Notes: generated from the letters alone by a model not told the origin. A stretch of DNA of 64,000 nt from an uncultured Bacilli bacterium (GCA_947626095.1 CANQQV010000002.1:32001-96000); one strand, 5' to 3'. Positions 7 through 9,482 are shown, counted from the stretch's first letter. Program-made: numbers and translations.

Positions 7-429
7 CTAAGCGTTAGTTGCCGGTTCTTCTACAGTTTCACTTGTAGTTCGACCTTTAACTTTACCGATTAGAATCCAACCAAAGTTGTATTCCAACTCA
101 TAATTTATATTATCAATATCTGTCATAAAAGCTTGATATAAATTATTTAATTCAGTCTTTAAGTTATTTACATCTGTTTGTAATTCATCTCTTGCAACTG
201 AGATGTCTTTAACACTGCTACCATTTTCAAAATCAAATGCAGTGTCAATGGCTGTAGCATTTTGGATTTCAGTCATTGCTTCATCTAATTTTTGTGGTAA
301 TTCATTTACTAAGAAATTAAAATCAGATTTTATACTATCATTAATAACTGAATAGCCAAAACCAGAGGGATCGACAGTATAATTAGCCGTCTCCTTAGTA
401 TTTCCTGTTTGTCTAGTAGCTGTTGCCAT
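7..429 (-). CDS. small helical T7SS-associated protein, paralogue of 7275..7508
   Basis: 140 aa ORF with AAAGGAG RBS. Amphipathic helices LDEAMT...LQTDVNNLKTEL...MTDIDN match IDEAIS...LIRDLDANKTIL...MQDIDN in 7275..7508 with the same DEA-to-DIDN spacing. Confidence 0.65.
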   Translation of the reverse strand: MATATRQTGNTKETANYTVDPSGFGYSVINDSIKSDFNFLVNELPQKLDEAMTEIQNATAIDTAFDFENGSSVKDISVARDELQTDVNNLKTELNNLYQAFMTDIDNINYELEYNFGWILIGKVKGRTTSETVEEPATNA

Positions 430-486
430 AACACATTTCTCCTTTCAGATTATTTATTATATATATCAACTTAAACATATTAATTT

Positions 487-1500
487 TTATGCAGCCGCTG
501 CAACTGGTATATTAGGTGTAAAGAAATTTATACTGTTACCATCGCGGAATAAATTACCAATCCATCTTCCAGCATCATCGTAGAATTGAAGACAATTAGG
601 ATCAGTTGTAGTTCGAATAACTCTTGTTGCTCCTAAATCTCTAGCCTGGGTTACGAAATCAGAAACTCCTCTAATATAATTTTGTTGAACTACGTTTGAA
701 GCACTTTGGGAAATCGCATTATCAACGTTAGTCATCATTTCACTAATTGGAATTTCTTGTGAAGTACCAATTTGTAAAGGTGTTGAAGCGGTTCCAGTTG
801 CTCCTGTTGCTCCTGTTGCTTCGACATGAGCAGGTAATGCTGGTGTGCTTTCGGGAGCTGGTAAAGCTGGATTCGTCGGTGTTGGACTTGGTGTAGGTGC
901 TGGAGCTGCTGGTGTAGCAAATGCTAAACCATAGCCTGCCACGCCGGTCCATAGAAGTCCTAATATATCGGCACCTAAAACGATTCCAGTAGTTATTTGA
1001 TGTCTTCTTAAAACACTCTTTGAGTCTGTAGAAATATACTCTACACCTGTTAATTCATATAGTTGTCCTACATTACTAAGATCATTAAGATAACTTTCAT
1101 AGTTATCGGTTTTATACTGATTATAATAAGAAGTATTTATGTAGTTATCTGTTCTTCCACCACTGGTTACACCTAATGGATTAGCACTTTGGAAGCCGGC
1201 AATATCTCTTTCAAATTGAGCATAATCACCACCACTTTGTGCTATTAATGTCGCCCAGTTACTAAATTTAGAAACAAAGTTAGGGAAATTAGATGAAGAG
1301 TTATCCCAGTCTAATTTTAGTTGTGATCCTAAATCACCAAAGATAGCTTCTTCTTCAACATTAACAGTATTTTCTACTTCCTTATTTAGATTTTCTAATA
1401 TTCCGGCAATAGAGTCAGCACTTCCTGCATCACCAATAGTTTTTAACATTTGTTGATAAATATTGCTGACTTCTTGATAATTAAATTTTCTTTCTGCCAT
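487..1500 (-). CDS. WXG100-like N-terminal domain protein with TM helix, Pro-rich linker and small C-terminal domain (candidate T7SS substrate)
   Basis: N-terminal ~105 aa helical hairpin (IFGDLG...NFPNFVSKFSNW) resembles 7528..8022. Followed by hydrophobic GIVLGADILGLLWTGVAGYGLAFA, a PAAPAPTPSPTP linker and a ~90 aa tail. Confidence 0.65.
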   Translation of the reverse strand: MAERKFNYQEVSNIYQQMLKTIGDAGSADSIAGILENLNKEVENTVNVEEEAIFGDLGSQLKLDWDNSSSNFPNFVSKFSNWATLIAQSGGDYAQFERDIAGFQSANPLGVTSGGRTDNYINTSYYNQYKTDNYESYLNDLSNVGQLYELTGVEYISTDSKSVLRRHQITTGIVLGADILGLLWTGVAGYGLAFATPAAPAPTPSPTPTNPALPAPESTPALPAHVEATGATGATGTASTPLQIGTSQEIPISEMMTNVDNAISQSASNVVQQNYIRGVSDFVTQARDLGATRVIRTTTDPNCLQFYDDAGRWIGNLFRDGNSINFFTPNIPVAAAA

Positions 1501-1526
1501 ATAAATCCTCCATTCAAAGGTTTTTA

Positions 1527-3179
1527 TTATTTCAATTTACATTTAGCAAGGTCTTCTGGAGTAAATCCTCTTCCACCACGGGTATATTCTCCGTTTTCAA
1601 GTTCATAGTATTGTCCAGAATCTTCATCCCAAACTAAGTACATTGTATTTCTTCCTTTATTTAAATCACTACCTTGTGATAAGAAAGGTACATCAACTGT
1701 AGTATTTATTTCTAGTACTGGTGTGTGTGCATTAGCACTTGCATGTAATTCATCACTTGTAGTAACTTTATATGTTTCAACTGATCCACCAATATTTTCA
1801 CCTTTTGGATCACCATAGTATACGTTTTCTACGCTTCCATAAATATTAAATTCATCTCCGCCAGGAGTAACTTGTGTTGGCAAGTTACGGTCGGATGCAT
1901 CTTCGGCATTGGTTGTTATACCACTATACATTGATACATGGTCATCAGCATAGCCAACTGTAAATGAAGCAGTAGATATTCCTAAGTCTTCGATTGCCCC
2001 ACTTGATAATTGTTTTAATATTGTTTCATGGCCATTTGCATCCACATATCTGTAGAAATTATTACCACTACTTTTATCGGTTGCCCAGAATGTAACTTCT
2101 ATATTCTGACCGTCGTATGTAATGCCACATTTGTCGCCACGACGGATTGTGTATGCTGTAGTTTTTGGACTTGGATTGTTGTCATCTTCTGTTCCACCTG
2201 TACCAGTTCCAGTAGTACCACTATTGTCAGGGAATGTACGACCGCCACCTGAATGAACATTTCCACTATAATATTTTTCAGTACATACAAAGTGATCATC
2301 TTTATCAAAAGTATATACATTAACAGTACCATCATTTTCGGTTTGAGTAATAGTATAACTACCATCAGAATTATATTTATATGTTCCACCTTGTACTTTG
2401 GCAGTCATTCCACCGGTCATTAAAGCCGCTGCTCCACCGCCAGCAATCATTTCATAATTAATATTTTGATTTGTATCGTATGTCTTACGTGATTCTAAAA
2501 CACCATTATCCCATACGTCTACTTGCATCTTGTTTCCGTCAGCATCATAATATGTGTATGTTCTTTCATCGCCTGATACTTGAGCACCAACTTCACCACC
2601 ATATGGGTTATATGAACCATTACTGTTTGTTTGAGTTCTTAATGTAGCTGGATCTACAGGTTCACCTGGACTGCCACCAGTATTACCTGGATCATTGACA
2701 TCACCTGGATCTCCGCCACTATTTACTGGATCACTATTTCCTTCTTGCGTTGTTCCTCCGCTACCAGCAGGTGTTGCACCACTACCAGTAGGTGTTCCTC
2801 CACTACCTGGAGTTCCGGATGCTGGTGTACCATATCCACCTGGTGCTCCGCTACCAGAGCCGCCTGTTCCGCCGCTACCTGTAGCATTTAAAATAATTGA
2901 TATTAATTCACTGGCTAATTCTTCAGTACCAGTTGCTACTAAATCAAAATGGGTGCTAAACATTCTTATACCATCAGATAAATCCTGAAGAGCAGTTTTA
3001 TATCCTTCAGTTCCTGTTTTAAAGGCATCGTAATCTTCACCTACCCAATGTGTACTTAAGGAATCGATCTCACTATACATTTCCCCTATTTTTGTATCAA
3101 AATTATCGGCTCCTTCATTTAGTTTTTGGGCAAGGTCTTTTTGGACTTCGCTATCAGCTGTAAAATCCCATCCAGCCAT
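1527..3179 (-). CDS. WXG100-domain protein with long C-terminal extension (candidate T7SS effector)
   Basis: N-terminal HWVGEDYDAF WXG motif in a ~100 aa helical domain, then a Gly/Ser/Pro linker, YD-like beta repeats (YTYYDADGN, YKYNSDG, YTFDKDD) and an unknown C-terminal domain. Confidence 0.75.
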   Translation of the reverse strand: MAGWDFTADSEVQKDLAQKLNEGADNFDTKIGEMYSEIDSLSTHWVGEDYDAFKTGTEGYKTALQDLSDGIRMFSTHFDLVATGTEELASELISIILNATGSGGTGGSGSGAPGGYGTPASGTPGSGGTPTGSGATPAGSGGTTQEGNSDPVNSGGDPGDVNDPGNTGGSPGEPVDPATLRTQTNSNGSYNPYGGEVGAQVSGDERTYTYYDADGNKMQVDVWDNGVLESRKTYDTNQNINYEMIAGGGAAALMTGGMTAKVQGGTYKYNSDGSYTITQTENDGTVNVYTFDKDDHFVCTEKYYSGNVHSGGGRTFPDNSGTTGTGTGGTEDDNNPSPKTTAYTIRRGDKCGITYDGQNIEVTFWATDKSSGNNFYRYVDANGHETILKQLSSGAIEDLGISTASFTVGYADDHVSMYSGITTNAEDASDRNLPTQVTPGGDEFNIYGSVENVYYGDPKGENIGGSVETYKVTTSDELHASANAHTPVLEINTTVDVPFLSQGSDLNKGRNTMYLVWDEDSGQYYELENGEYTRGGRGFTPEDLAKCKLK

Positions 3180-3212
3180 AATAACACCATCTTTCTGTGT
3201 ATATACAAATAA

Positions 3213-3269
3213 TACATTGTAAATCGCTAAATTTTAGCAACTTACAATGTACTACTTATCGTAGTACAT
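3213..3269 (-). promoter_or_regulatory. two overlapping, mutually exclusive RNA hairpins between the WXG pair and downstream genes
   Basis: 9-bp hairpin (3247-3255 with 3261-3269) overlaps an 18-bp hairpin (3213-3230 with 3234-3251, G-U pairs on the minus strand). No long U-tract follows. Confidence 0.6.
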
Positions 3270-3280
3270 ATTATTTCAAA

Positions 3281-8737: not shown

Positions 8738-8766
8738 CTATATATCATCCTCTCATTAAATATTTA

Positions 8767-9081
8767 TTATTTCATTCCAGCAGAACTAGCAATGTCTTTT
8801 GTTTTAGAACTTAGGTCTTGAGCATCGCTATATACTGTTTCGTTTTTAGCAATATAATCGTTTAATTCTTCATCGAATTTACGAATAGTTGTTAAAACGT
8901 CATTATCGTATGCTTCAGCTAGCGAATTTGCAGTATCACCGCTTAAACCACTTGTAAGTAATACGTTTTTAACCGTTTCTTTCATTTCGTCTGCTACATC
9001 AGTCATTGCTTCAGCAGCACTTTTTAACATAGCTATAATTTGACCCATTTCTTCACCAGAAATTTCAAATGTTTTTGCCAC
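8767..9081 (-). CDS. WXG100-like protein (LxG variant)
   Basis: 104 aa, GTG start with an AGGAGGTG RBS, central GLSGDTA turn, directly after esaB. Confidence 0.8.
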   Translation of the reverse strand: MAKTFEISGEEMGQIIAMLKSAAEAMTDVADEMKETVKNVLLTSGLSGDTANSLAEAYDNDVLTTIRKFDEELNDYIAKNETVYSDAQDLSSKTKDIASSAGMK

Positions 9082-9096
9082 TAATCTTACACCTCC

Positions 9097-9354
9097 TTAT
9101 ATTAAAATTATTTTCGCACCATTTAAAATGTTGTTTTCTAAAAAGGTTTTATCAACATCATAAATAGCTCCATTGTCAGCATTAATTAGTGATAGTTTAT
9201 TGGAAACCGGAAAACTTCCATCTGTCATATCACTAATTGCCTTATTTAATAAGAATATAATTTCAATAGTCTTCTTATTAACAGGAATGAAAACATTGTA
9301 ACGTTCTTCAATGCTAGGTACAATTAAATCTACACAGACTTTATTATTATTCAT
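9097..9354 (-). CDS. esaB: EsaB/YukD ubiquitin-like T7SS protein
   Basis: 85 aa beta-grasp pattern (VCVDLIVPSIEERYNVFIP...TFLENNILNGAKIILI) next to essC. Confidence 0.85.
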   Translation of the reverse strand: MNNNKVCVDLIVPSIEERYNVFIPVNKKTIEIIFLLNKAISDMTDGSFPVSNKLSLINADNGAIYDVDKTFLENNILNGAKIILI

Positions 9355-9383
9355 AATAAAACCTCCTATTAAAATAGTCGACT

Positions 9384-9446
9384 TAAGAATATATGATAGT
9401 CATACCATTTCTGACCAATTCCCCTTAACCATCGATTATACTCTTA
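9384..9446 (-). promoter_or_regulatory. structured 5' leader (candidate cis-regulatory RNA), copy 1
   Basis: Begins at the predicted +1. Stem TAAGAGTATA/TATATTCTTA and inner stem GATGGTTA/TGACTATC enclose AGGGGAATTGGT. Confidence 0.5.
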
Positions 9447-9453
9447 TATATTT

Positions 9454-9482
9454 ATAATACACTTTATAAAATGTAAAGTCAA
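9454..9482 (-). promoter_or_regulatory. sigma-A promoter of esaB / module A
   Basis: TTGACT-17 bp-TATTAT on the minus strand. Confidence 0.7.

What the first reader, a model, noticed from the sequence alone, without database searches (positions are those of the whole stretch)
7..9482. T7SSb substrate region is built from two gene-for-gene paralogous cassettes with matching regulatory architecture
Seen in sequence: module A (8767, 8423 | 8035, 7528, 7275, 925 aa gene, DUF4176) parallels module B (3610, 3281 | 1527, 487, 7, then off-window). Matches are 8423~3281 (SA...AN...A...A.G...W), 8035~N-terminus of 1527 (Y.EI....W.G..Y..F..G...Y..A), 7528~N-terminus of 487 (NF..FV.....W..L.......Y..F) and 7275~7 (DEA...KT.L...M.DIDN, same spacing). 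The 8767~3610 match is weaker. Each module has its own promoter, a structured leader and a double hairpin after the first WXG pair. Known context: T7SSb substrates are exported with small helical partners (Lap proteins; EsxB/C/D for EsaD). Inference: this is a repeated five-helical-protein plus large-cargo cassette, more elaborate than canonical LXG/Lap loci and possibly an undescribed T7SS substrate family.
Basis: partly seen in the sequence, partly recalled or inferred. Interest (0 to 1): 0.85.

Follow-up and report, generated by a model that had tools for sequence, protein, structure and literature searches.

The report
Duplicated type VII secretion substrate cassette
An uncultured gut bacterium carries, next to its type VII secretion ATPase gene, two ancient copies of one seven-gene cassette for exported helical proteins, duplicated together with its regulatory RNA elements; this is an unusual variant of a known kind of system.

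Summary
The two cassettes are real. Profile comparison supports specific paralogy for positions 3, 4, 6 and 7. Positions 1 and 2 match only at family level. Position 5 matches by place and size alone.

Each cassette reads best as three export units. The first is a WXG100-like plus short LXG-like pair. The second is another such pair, whose members carry C-terminal domains that are swapped between genomes. The third is a small hairpin protein predicted to bind the N-terminus of a large conserved protein of an undescribed family, followed by DUF4176 chaperone genes.

The non-coding parts were duplicated too. These are a terminator, a promoter, a leader with shared invariant blocks, and a double-hairpin RNA between the two pairs. 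The RNA has many compensatory changes and a conserved alternative pairing. It was found in 24 of 26 genomes of the genus and in none of 34 outside it.

EssB was not found in any of 27 genus genomes; EsaA and EssA were not found in the window's own genome.

Verdict: a new variant of LXG/Lap-type substrate loci, not "five helpers plus one cargo". All functions are inferred.

The parts
9516..14192 (-). essC, the type VII secretion ATPase (1558 aa); it lies upstream of both cassettes
   Evidence: TIGR03928 T7_EssCb_Firm 977 bits against a cut-off of 778.4; FtsK_SpoIIIE 8e-45
9496..9517 (-). terminator-like hairpin at the end of essC
   Evidence: 9-pair stem followed by a T-run; folded
9454..9482 (-). 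promoter-like site of cassette A (TTGACT, 17 bases, TATTAT)
   Evidence: 10 of 12 matches. The -35 box is conserved in the orthologous loci printed. Function is inferred.
9355..9453 (-). leader of cassette A, with invariant blocks shared with leader B
   Evidence: Alignment of 23 leaders from both cassettes has 20 invariant columns. The possible closing stem of 10 pairs has no compensatory change.
9097..9354 (-). 85-aa gene in the EsaB/YukD position; first gene of the cassette A transcription unit
   Evidence: Mean column identity 79% over 16 orthologues. Pfam YukD is not matched and no PDB profile hit was found; only faint ubiquitin-like hits. The role is inferred from place and size.
8767..9081 (-). 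A1, a class I (WXG100-like) small protein, 104 aa
   Evidence: hhalign A1-S1 100%, S1-A3 97%; TIGR03930 E 1.3e-3, below cut-off
8423..8737 (-). A2, a class II (short LXG-like) small protein, 104 aa
   Evidence: hhalign A2-A4 92%, A2-S4 97%; lies in the class II alignment with the conserved [LIMF]-x-G turn
8325..8428 (-). double-hairpin RNA element, copy A, between pair 1 and pair 2
   Evidence: z -4.9; covariance model R1 75.9 bits; 13 of 23 pairs carry compensatory changes; the alternative 20-pair helix is 99.8% paired
8035..8331 (-). A3, class I, 98 aa, with a W-A-G motif; paralogue of the N-terminus of B3
   Evidence: WXG100 E 2e-5, 25.2 bits, below the 27.3 cut-off; hhalign A3-B3 99%
7528..8022 (-). 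A4, class II carrier, 164 aa here (137-526 aa in orthologues); paralogue of the N-terminus of B4
   Evidence: hhalign A4-B4 98%; lengths
7275..7508 (-). A5, a 77-aa helical hairpin; predicted partner of the N-terminus of A6
   Evidence: complex prediction score 0.84 against a best control of 0.01
4492..7269 (-). A6, the 925-aa large protein. Helical N-domain, disordered linker, conserved helical central domain (residues 469-715), disordered tail.
   Evidence: AF2 model; family alignment; 169 clusters in the protein library; no Pfam match
4096..4473 (-). A7, a DUF4176 (Ltc-family chaperone) gene, 125 aa
   Evidence: PF13780 96.4 bits against a cut-off of 25
4068..4098 (-). terminator-like hairpin with a T-run after A7
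   Evidence: fold; sequence; conserved in position in the loci printed
4019..4047 (-). promoter-like site of cassette B (TTGATT, 17 bases, TATAAT)
   Evidence: 10 of 12 matches; conserved in the loci printed
3907..4018 (-). leader of cassette B
   Evidence: shares invariant blocks with leader A
3610..3906 (-). B1, class I, about 98 aa counted from the ATG at 3906 (the longer 123-aa ORF runs into the leader); has a W-V-G motif
   Evidence: A GGAGG box precedes the ATG at 3906; TIGR03930 E 1.1e-6; hhalign B1-B3 97%
3281..3577 (-). B2, class II, 98 aa
   Evidence: hhalign B2-B4 95%
3173..3278 (-). double-hairpin RNA element, copy B
   Evidence: z -5.5; R1 73.6 bits; flagged as terminator-like
1527..3179 (-). 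B3, class I carrier, 550 aa: WXG100-like N-terminus, Gly/Pro-rich linker, beta-rich C-terminal domain
   Evidence: WXG100 E 9e-4. The C-terminal domain matches class-II carriers of L027 and L031 at E 1e-16. The AF2 model of the C-terminus is poor, pLDDT 46.8.
487..1500 (-). B4, class II carrier, 337 aa, with a hydrophobic segment at about residues 169-187 and a C-terminal domain
   Evidence: hhalign A4-B4 98%; the hydrophobic segment is present in 6 of 9 orthologues
7..429 (-). B5, 140 aa, in position 5 of cassette B. Cassette B continues left of the window with B6 (830 aa) and two DUF4176 genes (L001:14740-17986).
   Evidence: Family alignment; no significant similarity to A5; off-window genes

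Best explanation
The region is the substrate part of an atypical type VIIb-like secretion locus in an uncultured gut genus of Bacilli. One ancestral unit was duplicated whole, long before the sampled genus diversified. That unit comprised a terminator, a promoter, a leader, seven genes and an internal RNA element.

Each copy encodes three helical-bundle export units.
1. A small WXG100-like (class I) protein plus a small short-LXG-like (class II) protein. These are probably a heterodimer made in excess.
2. A second class I plus class II pair. Its members serve as carriers for interchangeable C-terminal cargo domains.
3. A small hairpin protein (position 5) that packs against the N-terminal helical hairpin of a large, conserved, mostly helical and disordered protein (position 6). 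DUF4176 chaperone(s) probably keep that protein's disordered or hydrophobic parts soluble before export by EssC.

The double-hairpin RNA between units 1 and 2 has two conserved, mutually exclusive foldings. It most likely sets the ratio between the first pair and the downstream genes, by partial termination, processing or control of access to the ribosome-binding site of gene 3.

The copies have diverged. Only cassette B proteins carry hydrophobic segments, and only cassette B has a second DUF4176 gene.

Shown here: homology, synteny, RNA covariation and domain swapping. Inferred: binding, export, chaperoning and RNA function.
For: DUPLICATION OF THE WHOLE UNIT.
- Positions 3, 4, 6 and 7 are specific paralogues.
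- The class order I-II-I-II is the same in both cassettes.
- The leaders share 20 invariant columns across 23 sequences.
- The RNA between pairs aligns between the cassettes.

AGE. The tree of the central domain has two deep clades separated by branches with 100/100 support. One holds 8 of 9 A rows and the other 8 of 9 B rows. Single-cassette genomes fall in either clade.

CONSERVATION.
- The large-protein family occurs in 24 of 26 other genomes of the genus and in 0 of 34 genomes of other genera.
- 9 of 20 loci examined have both cassettes in the same order, and 7 have one cassette.

CARRIERS.
- RHS repeats occur on position-4 proteins (L034 E 2.7e-14, L030 4.5e-6). A glucosaminidase (1.2e-27) sits on a class-II N-terminus.
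- C-terminal domains are shared between class-I and class-II carriers (for example 60% identity between B3 of L026 and position 4 of L032).
- Elsewhere in this genome, a B3-like protein with a WXG100-like N-terminus carries a NAGPA glycosidase domain. Other WXG100-like genes lie next to genes with phage-tail-lysozyme, cell-wall-hydrolase, C39-like peptidase or ADP-ribosyltransferase domains.

CLASS II IS LXG-LIKE.
- The glycine of the [LIMF]-x-G turn is present in at least 90% of 49 sequences.
- Pfam LXG scores 30.6 bits (cut-off 26.5) on the position-2 protein of L034.

UNIT 3.
- Complex prediction on A6 residues 1-160 with A5 gave a score of 0.84; the best of 3 controls was 0.01. That mark was reached by 116 of 157 solved complexes and 2 of 215 mismatched pairs. 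The runs agree in at least 94% of contacts, and the partner's pLDDT is at least 89. The model supports binding; it does not show it.
- DUF4176 proteins are toxin-specific chaperones that bind a disordered region (PMC12478183; abstract and sections 5, 13 and 14 read).

RNA ELEMENT.
- 13 of 23 pairs carry compensatory changes.
- The alternative 20-pair helix is 99.8% paired, with 11 pairs changed on both sides; 0 of 500 shuffles reach this, and slid controls give 36-50% paired.
- The only sites in this genome are the two cassette copies.
- It was found in 24 of 26 genus genomes and 0 of 34 others.

HYDROPHOBIC SEGMENTS occur only in B4 (6 of 9 orthologues) and B6 (8 of 9).
Against: - No experimental or expression data exist for any part.
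- Direct A1-B1, A2-B2 and A5-B5 similarity is at noise level. Gene-for-gene paralogy therefore rests on family membership and order for positions 1 and 2, and on place alone for position 5.
- Each first pair is closer to its own cassette's second pair than to the other cassette's first pair (A2-A4 score 44 against A2-B2 23; B1-B3 62 against B1-A1 23). This could mean independent internal duplications rather than one ancestral seven-gene unit.
- In this genome A3 and A4 carry little or no cargo (98 and 164 aa).
- No immunity-like gene follows B3 or B4 here, which is unusual for antibacterial toxins.
- The window's own class I proteins all score below the WXG100 cut-off.
- The LXG link of class II rests on 2 of 49 members.
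- The fold of the large protein gave only generic coiled-coil matches.
- B5 with B6, the class I with class II pairs, and DUF4176 with the large protein were not tested for binding.
- The complex prediction used my own alignments, for which the calibration holds only roughly.
Confidence: 0.6

Rival explanations
1. One reading: each cassette is one large LXG-like cargo. All five small helical proteins are its Lap-like targeting or co-secretion partners, as EsxB/C/D are for EsaD or as in the seven-protein TelE assembly.
For: - All five small genes lie directly upstream of the large gene in one apparent transcription unit.
- A5 is predicted to bind the N-terminus of A6.
- A DUF4176 chaperone gene is present.
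- Multi-partner assemblies are in print: three partners for EsaD (PMC10653861, abstract start seen in the listing) and seven proteins for TelE (10.64898/2026.03.12.711312, abstract read).
Against: - Positions 3 and 4 carry their own variable cargo domains, which swap between carriers.
- Class I plus class II pairs occur without the large protein at four other places in this genome, and the large family occurs only twice.
- The large protein is conserved rather than polymorphic, with no toxin domain and no immunity gene.
- The L028 cassette lacks positions 1 and 2 but keeps the rest.
Confidence: 0.15
2. The large proteins, and the membrane-anchored B4, are parts of the secretion apparatus or of its cell-envelope conduit rather than substrates. 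They would stand in for the missing EssB, EsaA and EssA.
For: - EssB/YukC scores over cut-off in 0 of 27 genus genomes.
- EsaA and EssA were not found in this 91%-complete genome.
- No other conserved gene flanks essC.
- The large proteins are conserved across the genus.
- B6 and B4 have hydrophobic segments.
- The large proteins have long coiled coils.
Against: - 7 of 20 loci have a single cassette with no hydrophobic segment at positions 1-5 and 7; only 2 of the 7 large proteins show one, at about residue 300.
- A6 has no predicted membrane segment.
- An N-terminal helical hairpin with a small partner, plus a DUF4176 chaperone, is the signature of substrates (PMC12478183).
- Two diverged paralogues per genome fit effectors better than a core part.
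Confidence: 0.12
3. The resemblance between the cassettes is only the generic likeness of small helical WXG-type proteins that cluster near essC. There was no cassette duplication.
For: Three of the five small positional pairs score no better than unrelated helical pairs.
Against: - A3-B3 99% and A4-B4 98%.
- A6-B6 E 8e-17.
- The DUF4176 pairs.
- Non-coding elements that align base for base between the cassettes, with covariation.
Confidence: 0.02

Closest known systems
LXG toxin cassettes of T7SSb with Lap1/Lap2 targeting factors and DUF4176 (Ltc) chaperones (Streptococcus intermedius TelA-D; PMC12478183, with PMC10801868 seen only in search listings)
   Same: - Small helical partners are encoded just upstream of a protein whose N-terminal helical domain they are predicted to bind.
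- A DUF4176 gene lies in the cassette.
- Carriers have variable C-terminal domains.
- RHS-type cargo occurs in relatives.
   Different: - No Pfam LXG, DUF3130 or DUF3958 match in the window, and no LXG match anywhere in the genome.
- The carrier domain is about 105-130 aa rather than about 200 aa, and is paired with one WXG100-like neighbour.
- Both members of a pair can carry cargo.
- The DUF4176 proteins are small (89-150 aa) and lie downstream of a large non-toxin protein. That fits neither of the two contexts described for the family (section 5).
- No immunity genes.
- The cassette is duplicated together with its RNA elements.
Mycobacterial ESX (T7SSa) substrate pairs: EsxB-EsxA and PE-PPE with the EspG chaperone (as summarised in the discussion of PMC12478183; the rest is recalled)
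   Same: - Tandem genes for two unlike helical-hairpin proteins that act as heterodimers.
- A short partner is encoded just upstream of a longer one that can carry a long variable C-terminal part.
- A dedicated chaperone is present.
- Cassettes occur in several paralogous copies per genome.
   Different: - Different phylum.
- No Pfam PE, PPE or EspG match.
- The chaperone is DUF4176.
- EssC is of the Bacillota type.
T7SS variants T7SSc to T7SSj (Garrett, Higginson and Palmer 2024, PMC11217815; abstract, Results parts 1-2 and the substrate section read)
   Same: - Loci built around the ATPase, a small ubiquitin-like protein and WXG100 proteins, but lacking the T7SSb core set.
- Candidate substrates (LXG-like, RHS) lie next to one or two small WXG100-related genes.
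   Different: - Every variant described there has at least one further conserved component (kinase, phosphatase, FHA protein, beta-propeller, EspG-like protein and others). None was found next to essC here.
- This EssC scores as the T7SSb type.
- That survey used RefSeq, and its supplementary tables were not read, so an equivalent arrangement there cannot be excluded.
EsaD with EsxB/EsxC/EsxD and EsaE in Staphylococcus aureus (PMC10653861, abstract start only), and the seven-protein TelE assembly (10.64898/2026.03.12.711312, abstract only)
   Same: Several small helical proteins and a chaperone are encoded around one large exported protein.
   Different: - Those cargos are toxins with immunity proteins.
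- Here the large protein has no toxin domain, and the small proteins form their own pairs and carry their own cargo.

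Membership tests
T7SSb (Bacillota type VIIb secretion system) | EssC-type membrane ATPase | tested here: met
   TIGR03928 977 bits against a cut-off of 778.4
T7SSb (Bacillota type VIIb secretion system) | EssB/YukC pseudokinase membrane component | tested here: not met
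   PF10140 scores over cut-off in 0 of 27 genomes of the genus, completeness 64-96%. A structural analogue is not excluded.
T7SSb (Bacillota type VIIb secretion system) | EsaA and EssA membrane components | tested here: not met
   TIGR03929 and PF10661 give no match at E <= 0.01 in this genome, which is 91% complete. Searched in this genome only.
T7SSb (Bacillota type VIIb secretion system) | EsaB/YukD ubiquitin-like protein | tested here: inconclusive
   An 85-aa conserved gene sits in the right place, but there is no Pfam YukD match and no PDB profile hit; only faint ubiquitin-like hits. The fold was not predicted.
WXG100 (PF06013), tested for class I proteins A1, A3, B1, B3 | Profile score above the curated cut-off | tested here: not met
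   A3 25.2, B1 22.8, B3 19.8 and A1 15.7 bits against 27.3. Other genes of this genome do pass (41.1, 38.1 and 28.6 bits).
WXG100 (PF06013), tested for class I proteins A1, A3, B1, B3 | W-x-G turn in a protein or domain of about 100 aa | tested here: met
   W-A-G in A3, W-V-G in B1 and B3, read. A1 has no W-x-G.
LXG polymorphic toxins (PF04740), tested for the large proteins A6 and B6 | LXG profile match at the N-terminus | tested here: not met
   No Pfam family at E <= 0.1; no LXG match in the genome
LXG polymorphic toxins (PF04740), tested for the large proteins A6 and B6 | Variable C-terminal toxin domain followed by an immunity gene | tested here: not met
   The C-terminus is a disordered low-complexity tail and the central domain is conserved. 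The next genes are DUF4176, then the next cassette or a helicase-like gene.
LXG polymorphic toxins (PF04740), tested for the large proteins A6 and B6 | N-terminal helical domain bound by small helical partners | tested here: inconclusive
   Prediction only: score 0.84 against a best control of 0.01 for A5 with A6 residues 1-160
LXG domain, tested for class II proteins A2, A4, B2, B4 | LXG profile match | tested here: inconclusive
   The window's own proteins are not matched. Among 49 relatives, one passes (30.6 bits against 26.5, profile positions 33-90) and one is weak.
LXG domain, tested for class II proteins A2, A4, B2, B4 | Leu-x-Gly type turn and a variable C-terminal domain | tested here: met
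   [LIMF]-x-G with the Gly in at least 90% of 49 sequences; variable and swapped C-termini at position 4
Lap1 (DUF3130) / Lap2 (DUF3958) targeting factors | Profile match | tested here: not met
   Neither family is listed for any of the small proteins at E <= 0.1
DUF4176 / Ltc chaperones | PF13780 profile match | tested here: met
   A7 96.4 bits; the two genes after B6 score 87.8 and 85.9 bits; cut-off 25
DUF4176 / Ltc chaperones | Binds a disordered or amphipathic region of its neighbouring exported protein | not tested
A6 does have a disordered stretch at residues 372-447.

The most novel reading that the evidence does not exclude
This genus runs a further, minimal type VII secretion subtype: EssC plus one small conserved protein, with no EssB, EsaA or EssA. 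Its substrates are organised like mycobacterial Esx and PE/PPE pairs, with cargo that can sit on either partner. Its cassettes are controlled in cis by two previously undescribed RNA elements. One is a conserved leader. The other is a two-state double hairpin that acts as a switch between making the core pair and making the cargo.
Probability: 0.3. Interest if true: 0.75.

Novelty: new variant of a known kind. Interest (0 to 1): 0.6.

Why it matters
Type VII secretion in Bacillota is understood mainly from staphylococci, streptococci and Bacillus. There, LXG toxins need two Lap partners, and the machine needs EssA, EssB and EsaA. This locus comes from an uncultured gut lineage and adds four things.
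- It suggests a simpler machine.
- It suggests a heterodimer logic closer to the mycobacterial one, with cargo on either partner.
- It gives a new genomic context for small DUF4176 chaperones. They sit next to proteins with hydrophobic segments, which fits a speculation in PMC12478183.
- It adds conserved RNA structures inside a secretion-substrate operon. Rfam has no family for them, and none of the papers read here mentions an RNA element in a T7SS locus.

The paired paralogous copies give built-in controls for experiments on substrate recognition and on the RNA element.

Tried and rejected
- FOLD OF A6. Foldseek against the PDB gave no match below E 0.85. VIA-align wide gave only long coiled-coil hairpins at Z about 10, below the level that means anything for helical models.
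- PDB SEQUENCE PROFILES. The central domain, class II and the 85-aa protein gave nothing significant. ESAT-6 and EsxA appear for class II only at E 0.07-0.3.
- AF2 ON THE B3 C-TERMINAL DOMAIN with a 4-row alignment gave pLDDT 46.8, too poor to search with.
- PROTEIN ATLAS. Two calls were answered that the sequence is not held and the machine is closed.
- The search for homologous proteins found only close relatives of A6 (9 proteins, no names, no Pfam). For the B3 C-terminus it found only the query itself.
- The search for related loci with the 25-row alignment was not conserved enough. With a 6-row alignment it returned 13 loci, all gut MAGs. Most were titled 'uncultured Bacilli bacterium' and two 'Candidatus Coprovivens'.
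- RFAM on window 1-9600 at E <= 1 gave two chance-level rows only.
- LEADER STRUCTURE. RNAalifold finds a 10-pair closing stem with no compensatory change, so it is not evidence of structure. Single-sequence folds of the leaders are unremarkable (z -1.7 and -1.6).
- SEQUENCING RUNS. No RNA holder is listed; six DNA holders come from two studies of animal gut samples. No reads were laid.
- EARLIER FINDINGS of this scan: nothing returned.
- LITERATURE. Four searches were run. Nine papers mention Coprovivens, and none has type VII secretion in its title. I did not find this cassette described, but the supplementary data of PMC11217815 were not read.

Full report
WHAT IS THERE

All genes of the finding lie on the minus strand downstream of essC (9516-14192). 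EssC matches TIGR03928 at 977 bits against a cut-off of 778.

Cassette A, in transcription order:
- an 85-aa gene (9097-9354)
- A1 (8767-9081, 104 aa)
- A2 (8423-8737, 104 aa)
- A3 (8035-8331, 98 aa)
- A4 (7528-8022, 164 aa)
- A5 (7275-7508, 77 aa)
- A6 (4492-7269, 925 aa)
- A7, a DUF4176 gene (4096-4473, 96.4 bits)

Cassette B:
- B1 (3610-3906 from the ATG that follows a GGAGG box; the longer ORF runs into the leader)
- B2 (3281-3577)
- B3 (1527-3179, 550 aa)
- B4 (487-1500, 337 aa)
- B5 (7-429, 140 aa)

The window's genome was available, so I read the DNA to the left. B5 is followed at once by an 830-aa gene, two DUF4176 genes (150 and 89 aa) and then a helicase-like housekeeping gene.

IS THE PARALOGY REAL?

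Plain BLASTP finds these pairs:
- A3 with B3 (3e-7)
- A4 with B4 (2e-3)
- A6 with B6 (8e-17, over a central region)
- the DUF4176 genes (2e-34 and 6e-28)

It does not find A1-B1, A2-B2 or A5-B5.

To go further I collected orthologous loci. The large-protein family is present in 24 of 26 other genomes of the same genus and in 0 of 34 genomes of other genera sampled. I fetched 20 loci and mapped their genes.
- Nine loci, counting the window's own, have both cassettes in the same order. One of these lacks A1 and A2, and three have extra ORFs.
- Seven have a single cassette.
- Two are atypical.
- Three are cut by contig ends.

I built a profile for each position and compared all against all.

| Pair | Probability | Score |
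|---|---|---|
| A3-B3 | 99% | 95 |
| A4-B4 | 98% | 87 |
| N-termini of A6 and B6 | 77% | 35 |
| A1-B1 | 13% | 23 |
| A2-B2 | 12% | 23 |
| A5-B5 | 12% | 22 |

Unrelated pairs in the matrix also score 20-25.

The matrix shows two clans. Class I holds A1, A3, B1 and B3 plus the single-cassette positions 1 and 3. Class II holds A2, A4, B2 and B4 plus the single-cassette positions 2 and 4. Both cassettes therefore share the order I-II-I-II. Each first pair, however, is nearer to the second pair of its own cassette than to the first pair of the other. This leaves two possibilities: concerted evolution within a cassette, or separate internal duplications.

WHAT THE CLASSES ARE

Class I proteins give sub-threshold WXG100 hits (A3 25.2 bits, B1 22.8, B3 19.8; cut-off 27.3). 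A3, B1 and B3 have a W-x-G turn.

Class II has no Pfam match in the window. An alignment of 49 class II domains shows a conserved [LIMF]-x-G turn followed by Trp and Phe positions. Two position-2 proteins of relatives hit the Pfam LXG domain at profile positions 33-90, one of them above the cut-off (30.6 against 26.5 bits). I read class II as a short, LXG-like half-domain.

Class I followed by class II also occurs at four other places in this genome. The pair therefore looks like a unit in its own right.

WHERE THE CARGO IS

Position 4 ranges from 137 to 1396 aa and B3 from 164 to 688 aa.
- Some position-4 proteins carry RHS repeats (L034 2.7e-14).
- A class-II N-terminus in L037 is fused to a glucosaminidase (1.2e-27).
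- C-terminal domains are not tied to a position. The C-terminus of this window's B3 matches class-II carriers of two other genomes (E 1e-16). B3 of L025 and L026 match position 4 of L032 at 53-60% identity. B3 of L022-L024 match position 4 of L036.

This is the domain swapping typical of polymorphic effectors.

Elsewhere in this genome, WXG100-like genes lie beside or are fused to the following:
- phage-tail lysozyme
- cell-wall hydrolase
- C39-like peptidase
- NAGPA glycosidase
- a 1343-aa protein with an ADP-ribosyltransferase domain

No immunity-like gene follows B3 or B4 in the window.

THE LARGE PROTEIN

The family alignment and an AlphaFold model (mean pLDDT 64.7) show four parts:
- a helical N-terminal region (residues 7-352)
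- a disordered stretch (372-447)
- a well-predicted helical central domain (469-715, pLDDT about 90). It ends in a long hairpin with an invariant Trp at the turn, and that hairpin is repeated in some members.
- a disordered tail

There is no Pfam or NCBIfam match, none in 37 further members, no PDB sequence match and no specific fold match.

A profile of the central domain finds 169 clusters at E <= 0.001 among 1.84 billion representative proteins, 120 of them at E <= 1e-30. Most of those listed are 600-1000 aa long, with the domain starting at about residue 350-550. This is a small, unnamed family.

A complex prediction of A6 residues 1-160 with A5 scored 0.84, against a best control of 0.01. 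The mark was reached by 116 of 157 solved complexes and 2 of 215 mismatched pairs. The runs agree in at least 94% of contacts, and the partner's pLDDT is at least 89. Both A5 helices lie along A6 residues 1-52 and 96-131. The model supports binding; it does not show it.

DUF4176 proteins are toxin-specific chaperones that fold a disordered amphipathic region. The small members of the family have been suggested to shield membrane-inserting helices (PMC12478183; abstract and sections 5, 13 and 14 read). Here, hydrophobic segments occur only in cassette B (B4 in 6 of 9 orthologues, B6 in 8 of 9). Cassette B is also the one with two DUF4176 genes.

REGULATORY ELEMENTS

Each cassette is preceded by a hairpin with a T-run and by a promoter-like site (9482-9454 and 4047-4019). 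Promoter-like sites as a class are not enriched in the region.

The roughly 100-nt leaders of both cassettes share 20 invariant columns across 23 sequences. A possible closing stem has no compensatory change.

Between genes 2 and 3 of each cassette lies a double hairpin.
- z is -4.9 and -5.5, with 0 of 200 shuffles folding as well.
- It is present in all 24 inter-pair spacers examined.
- It aligns base for base between cassettes.
- 13 of 23 pairs carry compensatory changes.
- The 3' arm of the first hairpin can instead extend the second hairpin by pairing with a repeat of the 5' arm downstream. This alternative 20-pair helix is 99.8% paired, with 11 pairs changed on both sides. No shuffle of 500 reaches that, and slid controls give 36-50% paired. 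One column covaries with both of its alternative partners.
- A covariance model finds only the two cassette copies in this genome. It finds the element in 24 of 26 genus genomes and in 0 of 34 others.
- Rfam has nothing like it.

I infer a cis-acting element that sets the ratio of the first pair to the downstream genes. Its mode of action (termination, processing or ribosome access) is not shown.

AGE AND CONTEXT

A tree of the central domain splits into two deep clades with 100/100 support. One holds 8 of 9 A copies and the other 8 of 9 B copies, and single-cassette genomes fall in either. One B copy (L027) groups with its own genome's A copy, which suggests recombination. One A copy (L028) sits on a long branch in the other clade.

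EssB/YukC scores over cut-off in 0 of 27 genus genomes. EsaA and EssA were not found in this 91%-complete genome. The 85-aa gene is not recognisable as YukD by sequence.

The published variants T7SSc to T7SSj each have further conserved components (PMC11217815; abstract, Results parts 1-2 and the substrate section read). Its supplements were not read.

VERDICT

The interpretation needs revising: each cassette is three export units, not five helpers for one cargo. This is a new variant of LXG/Lap-type substrate loci, with a new large-protein family and new RNA elements. All functions remain inferred.

Noticed in passing
whole genome G000 and 26 genomes of the genus: No EssB/YukC scores over cut-off in any of 27 genomes. 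EsaA and EssA were not found in this genome. essC is flanked only by thrS (with a 409-aa gene in between here) and the cassettes, so the machine may be EssC plus one small protein.
   Followed up: partly
window 9097-9354 (-): The 85-aa gene in the EsaB/YukD position is very conserved (mean column identity 79% over 16 orthologues) but matches neither Pfam YukD nor any PDB chain by profile. In L038 it lies after cassette B, at the head of an A-like remnant, so it travels with cassette A rather than with essC.
   Followed up: partly
G000 contigs C1, C4, C9, C10, C11 (L055-L060): Satellite substrate loci exist. WXG100 pairs above the Pfam cut-off lie next to rplI and dnaB. WXG100-like genes lie beside phage-tail-lysozyme, cell-wall-hydrolase and C39-like peptidase proteins. 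A B3-like protein carries a NAGPA glycosidase domain. Three small helical genes precede a 1343-aa protein with an ADP-ribosyltransferase domain. A 712-aa protein with no Pfam match is followed by a fourth DUF4176 gene.
   Followed up: partly
cassette B (window 487-1500 and L001:15494-17986): Hydrophobic segments occur only in cassette B proteins. B4 has one at about residues 165-187. B6 has a glycine-rich stretch at about residues 70-125, inserted at the tip of the N-terminal helical hairpin. Cassette B is also the one with two DUF4176 genes.
   Followed up: partly
L027 (both large genes): The central domain of the cassette B large protein groups with that of cassette A of the same genome (support 93/90). 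This suggests recombination between the paralogues.
   Followed up: no
window 9355-9453 and 3907-4018 (-): The leaders of both cassettes share invariant blocks near the predicted 5' end, in the middle and about 25 nt before the ribosome-binding site. The outer two blocks are complementary. There is no covariation, so structure is unproven.
   Followed up: partly
window 1-9000: G+C content of the cassette region is 0.30-0.40, above the 0.25-0.31 of the genome's contigs. The Gly/Pro-rich linkers contribute to this.
   Followed up: no
window 14275-15504 (-): A 409-aa gene between thrS and essC has no Pfam or NCBIfam match. In L036 the only ORF in that interval is a 588-aa one that was not identified.
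   Followed up: no
A6 C-terminal tail (window about 4492-5100) and relatives: The disordered tails of the large proteins contain a short acidic, Gly-x-Gly-aromatic motif. It is repeated up to three times and often lies at the very C-terminus. Its role is unknown.
   Followed up: no
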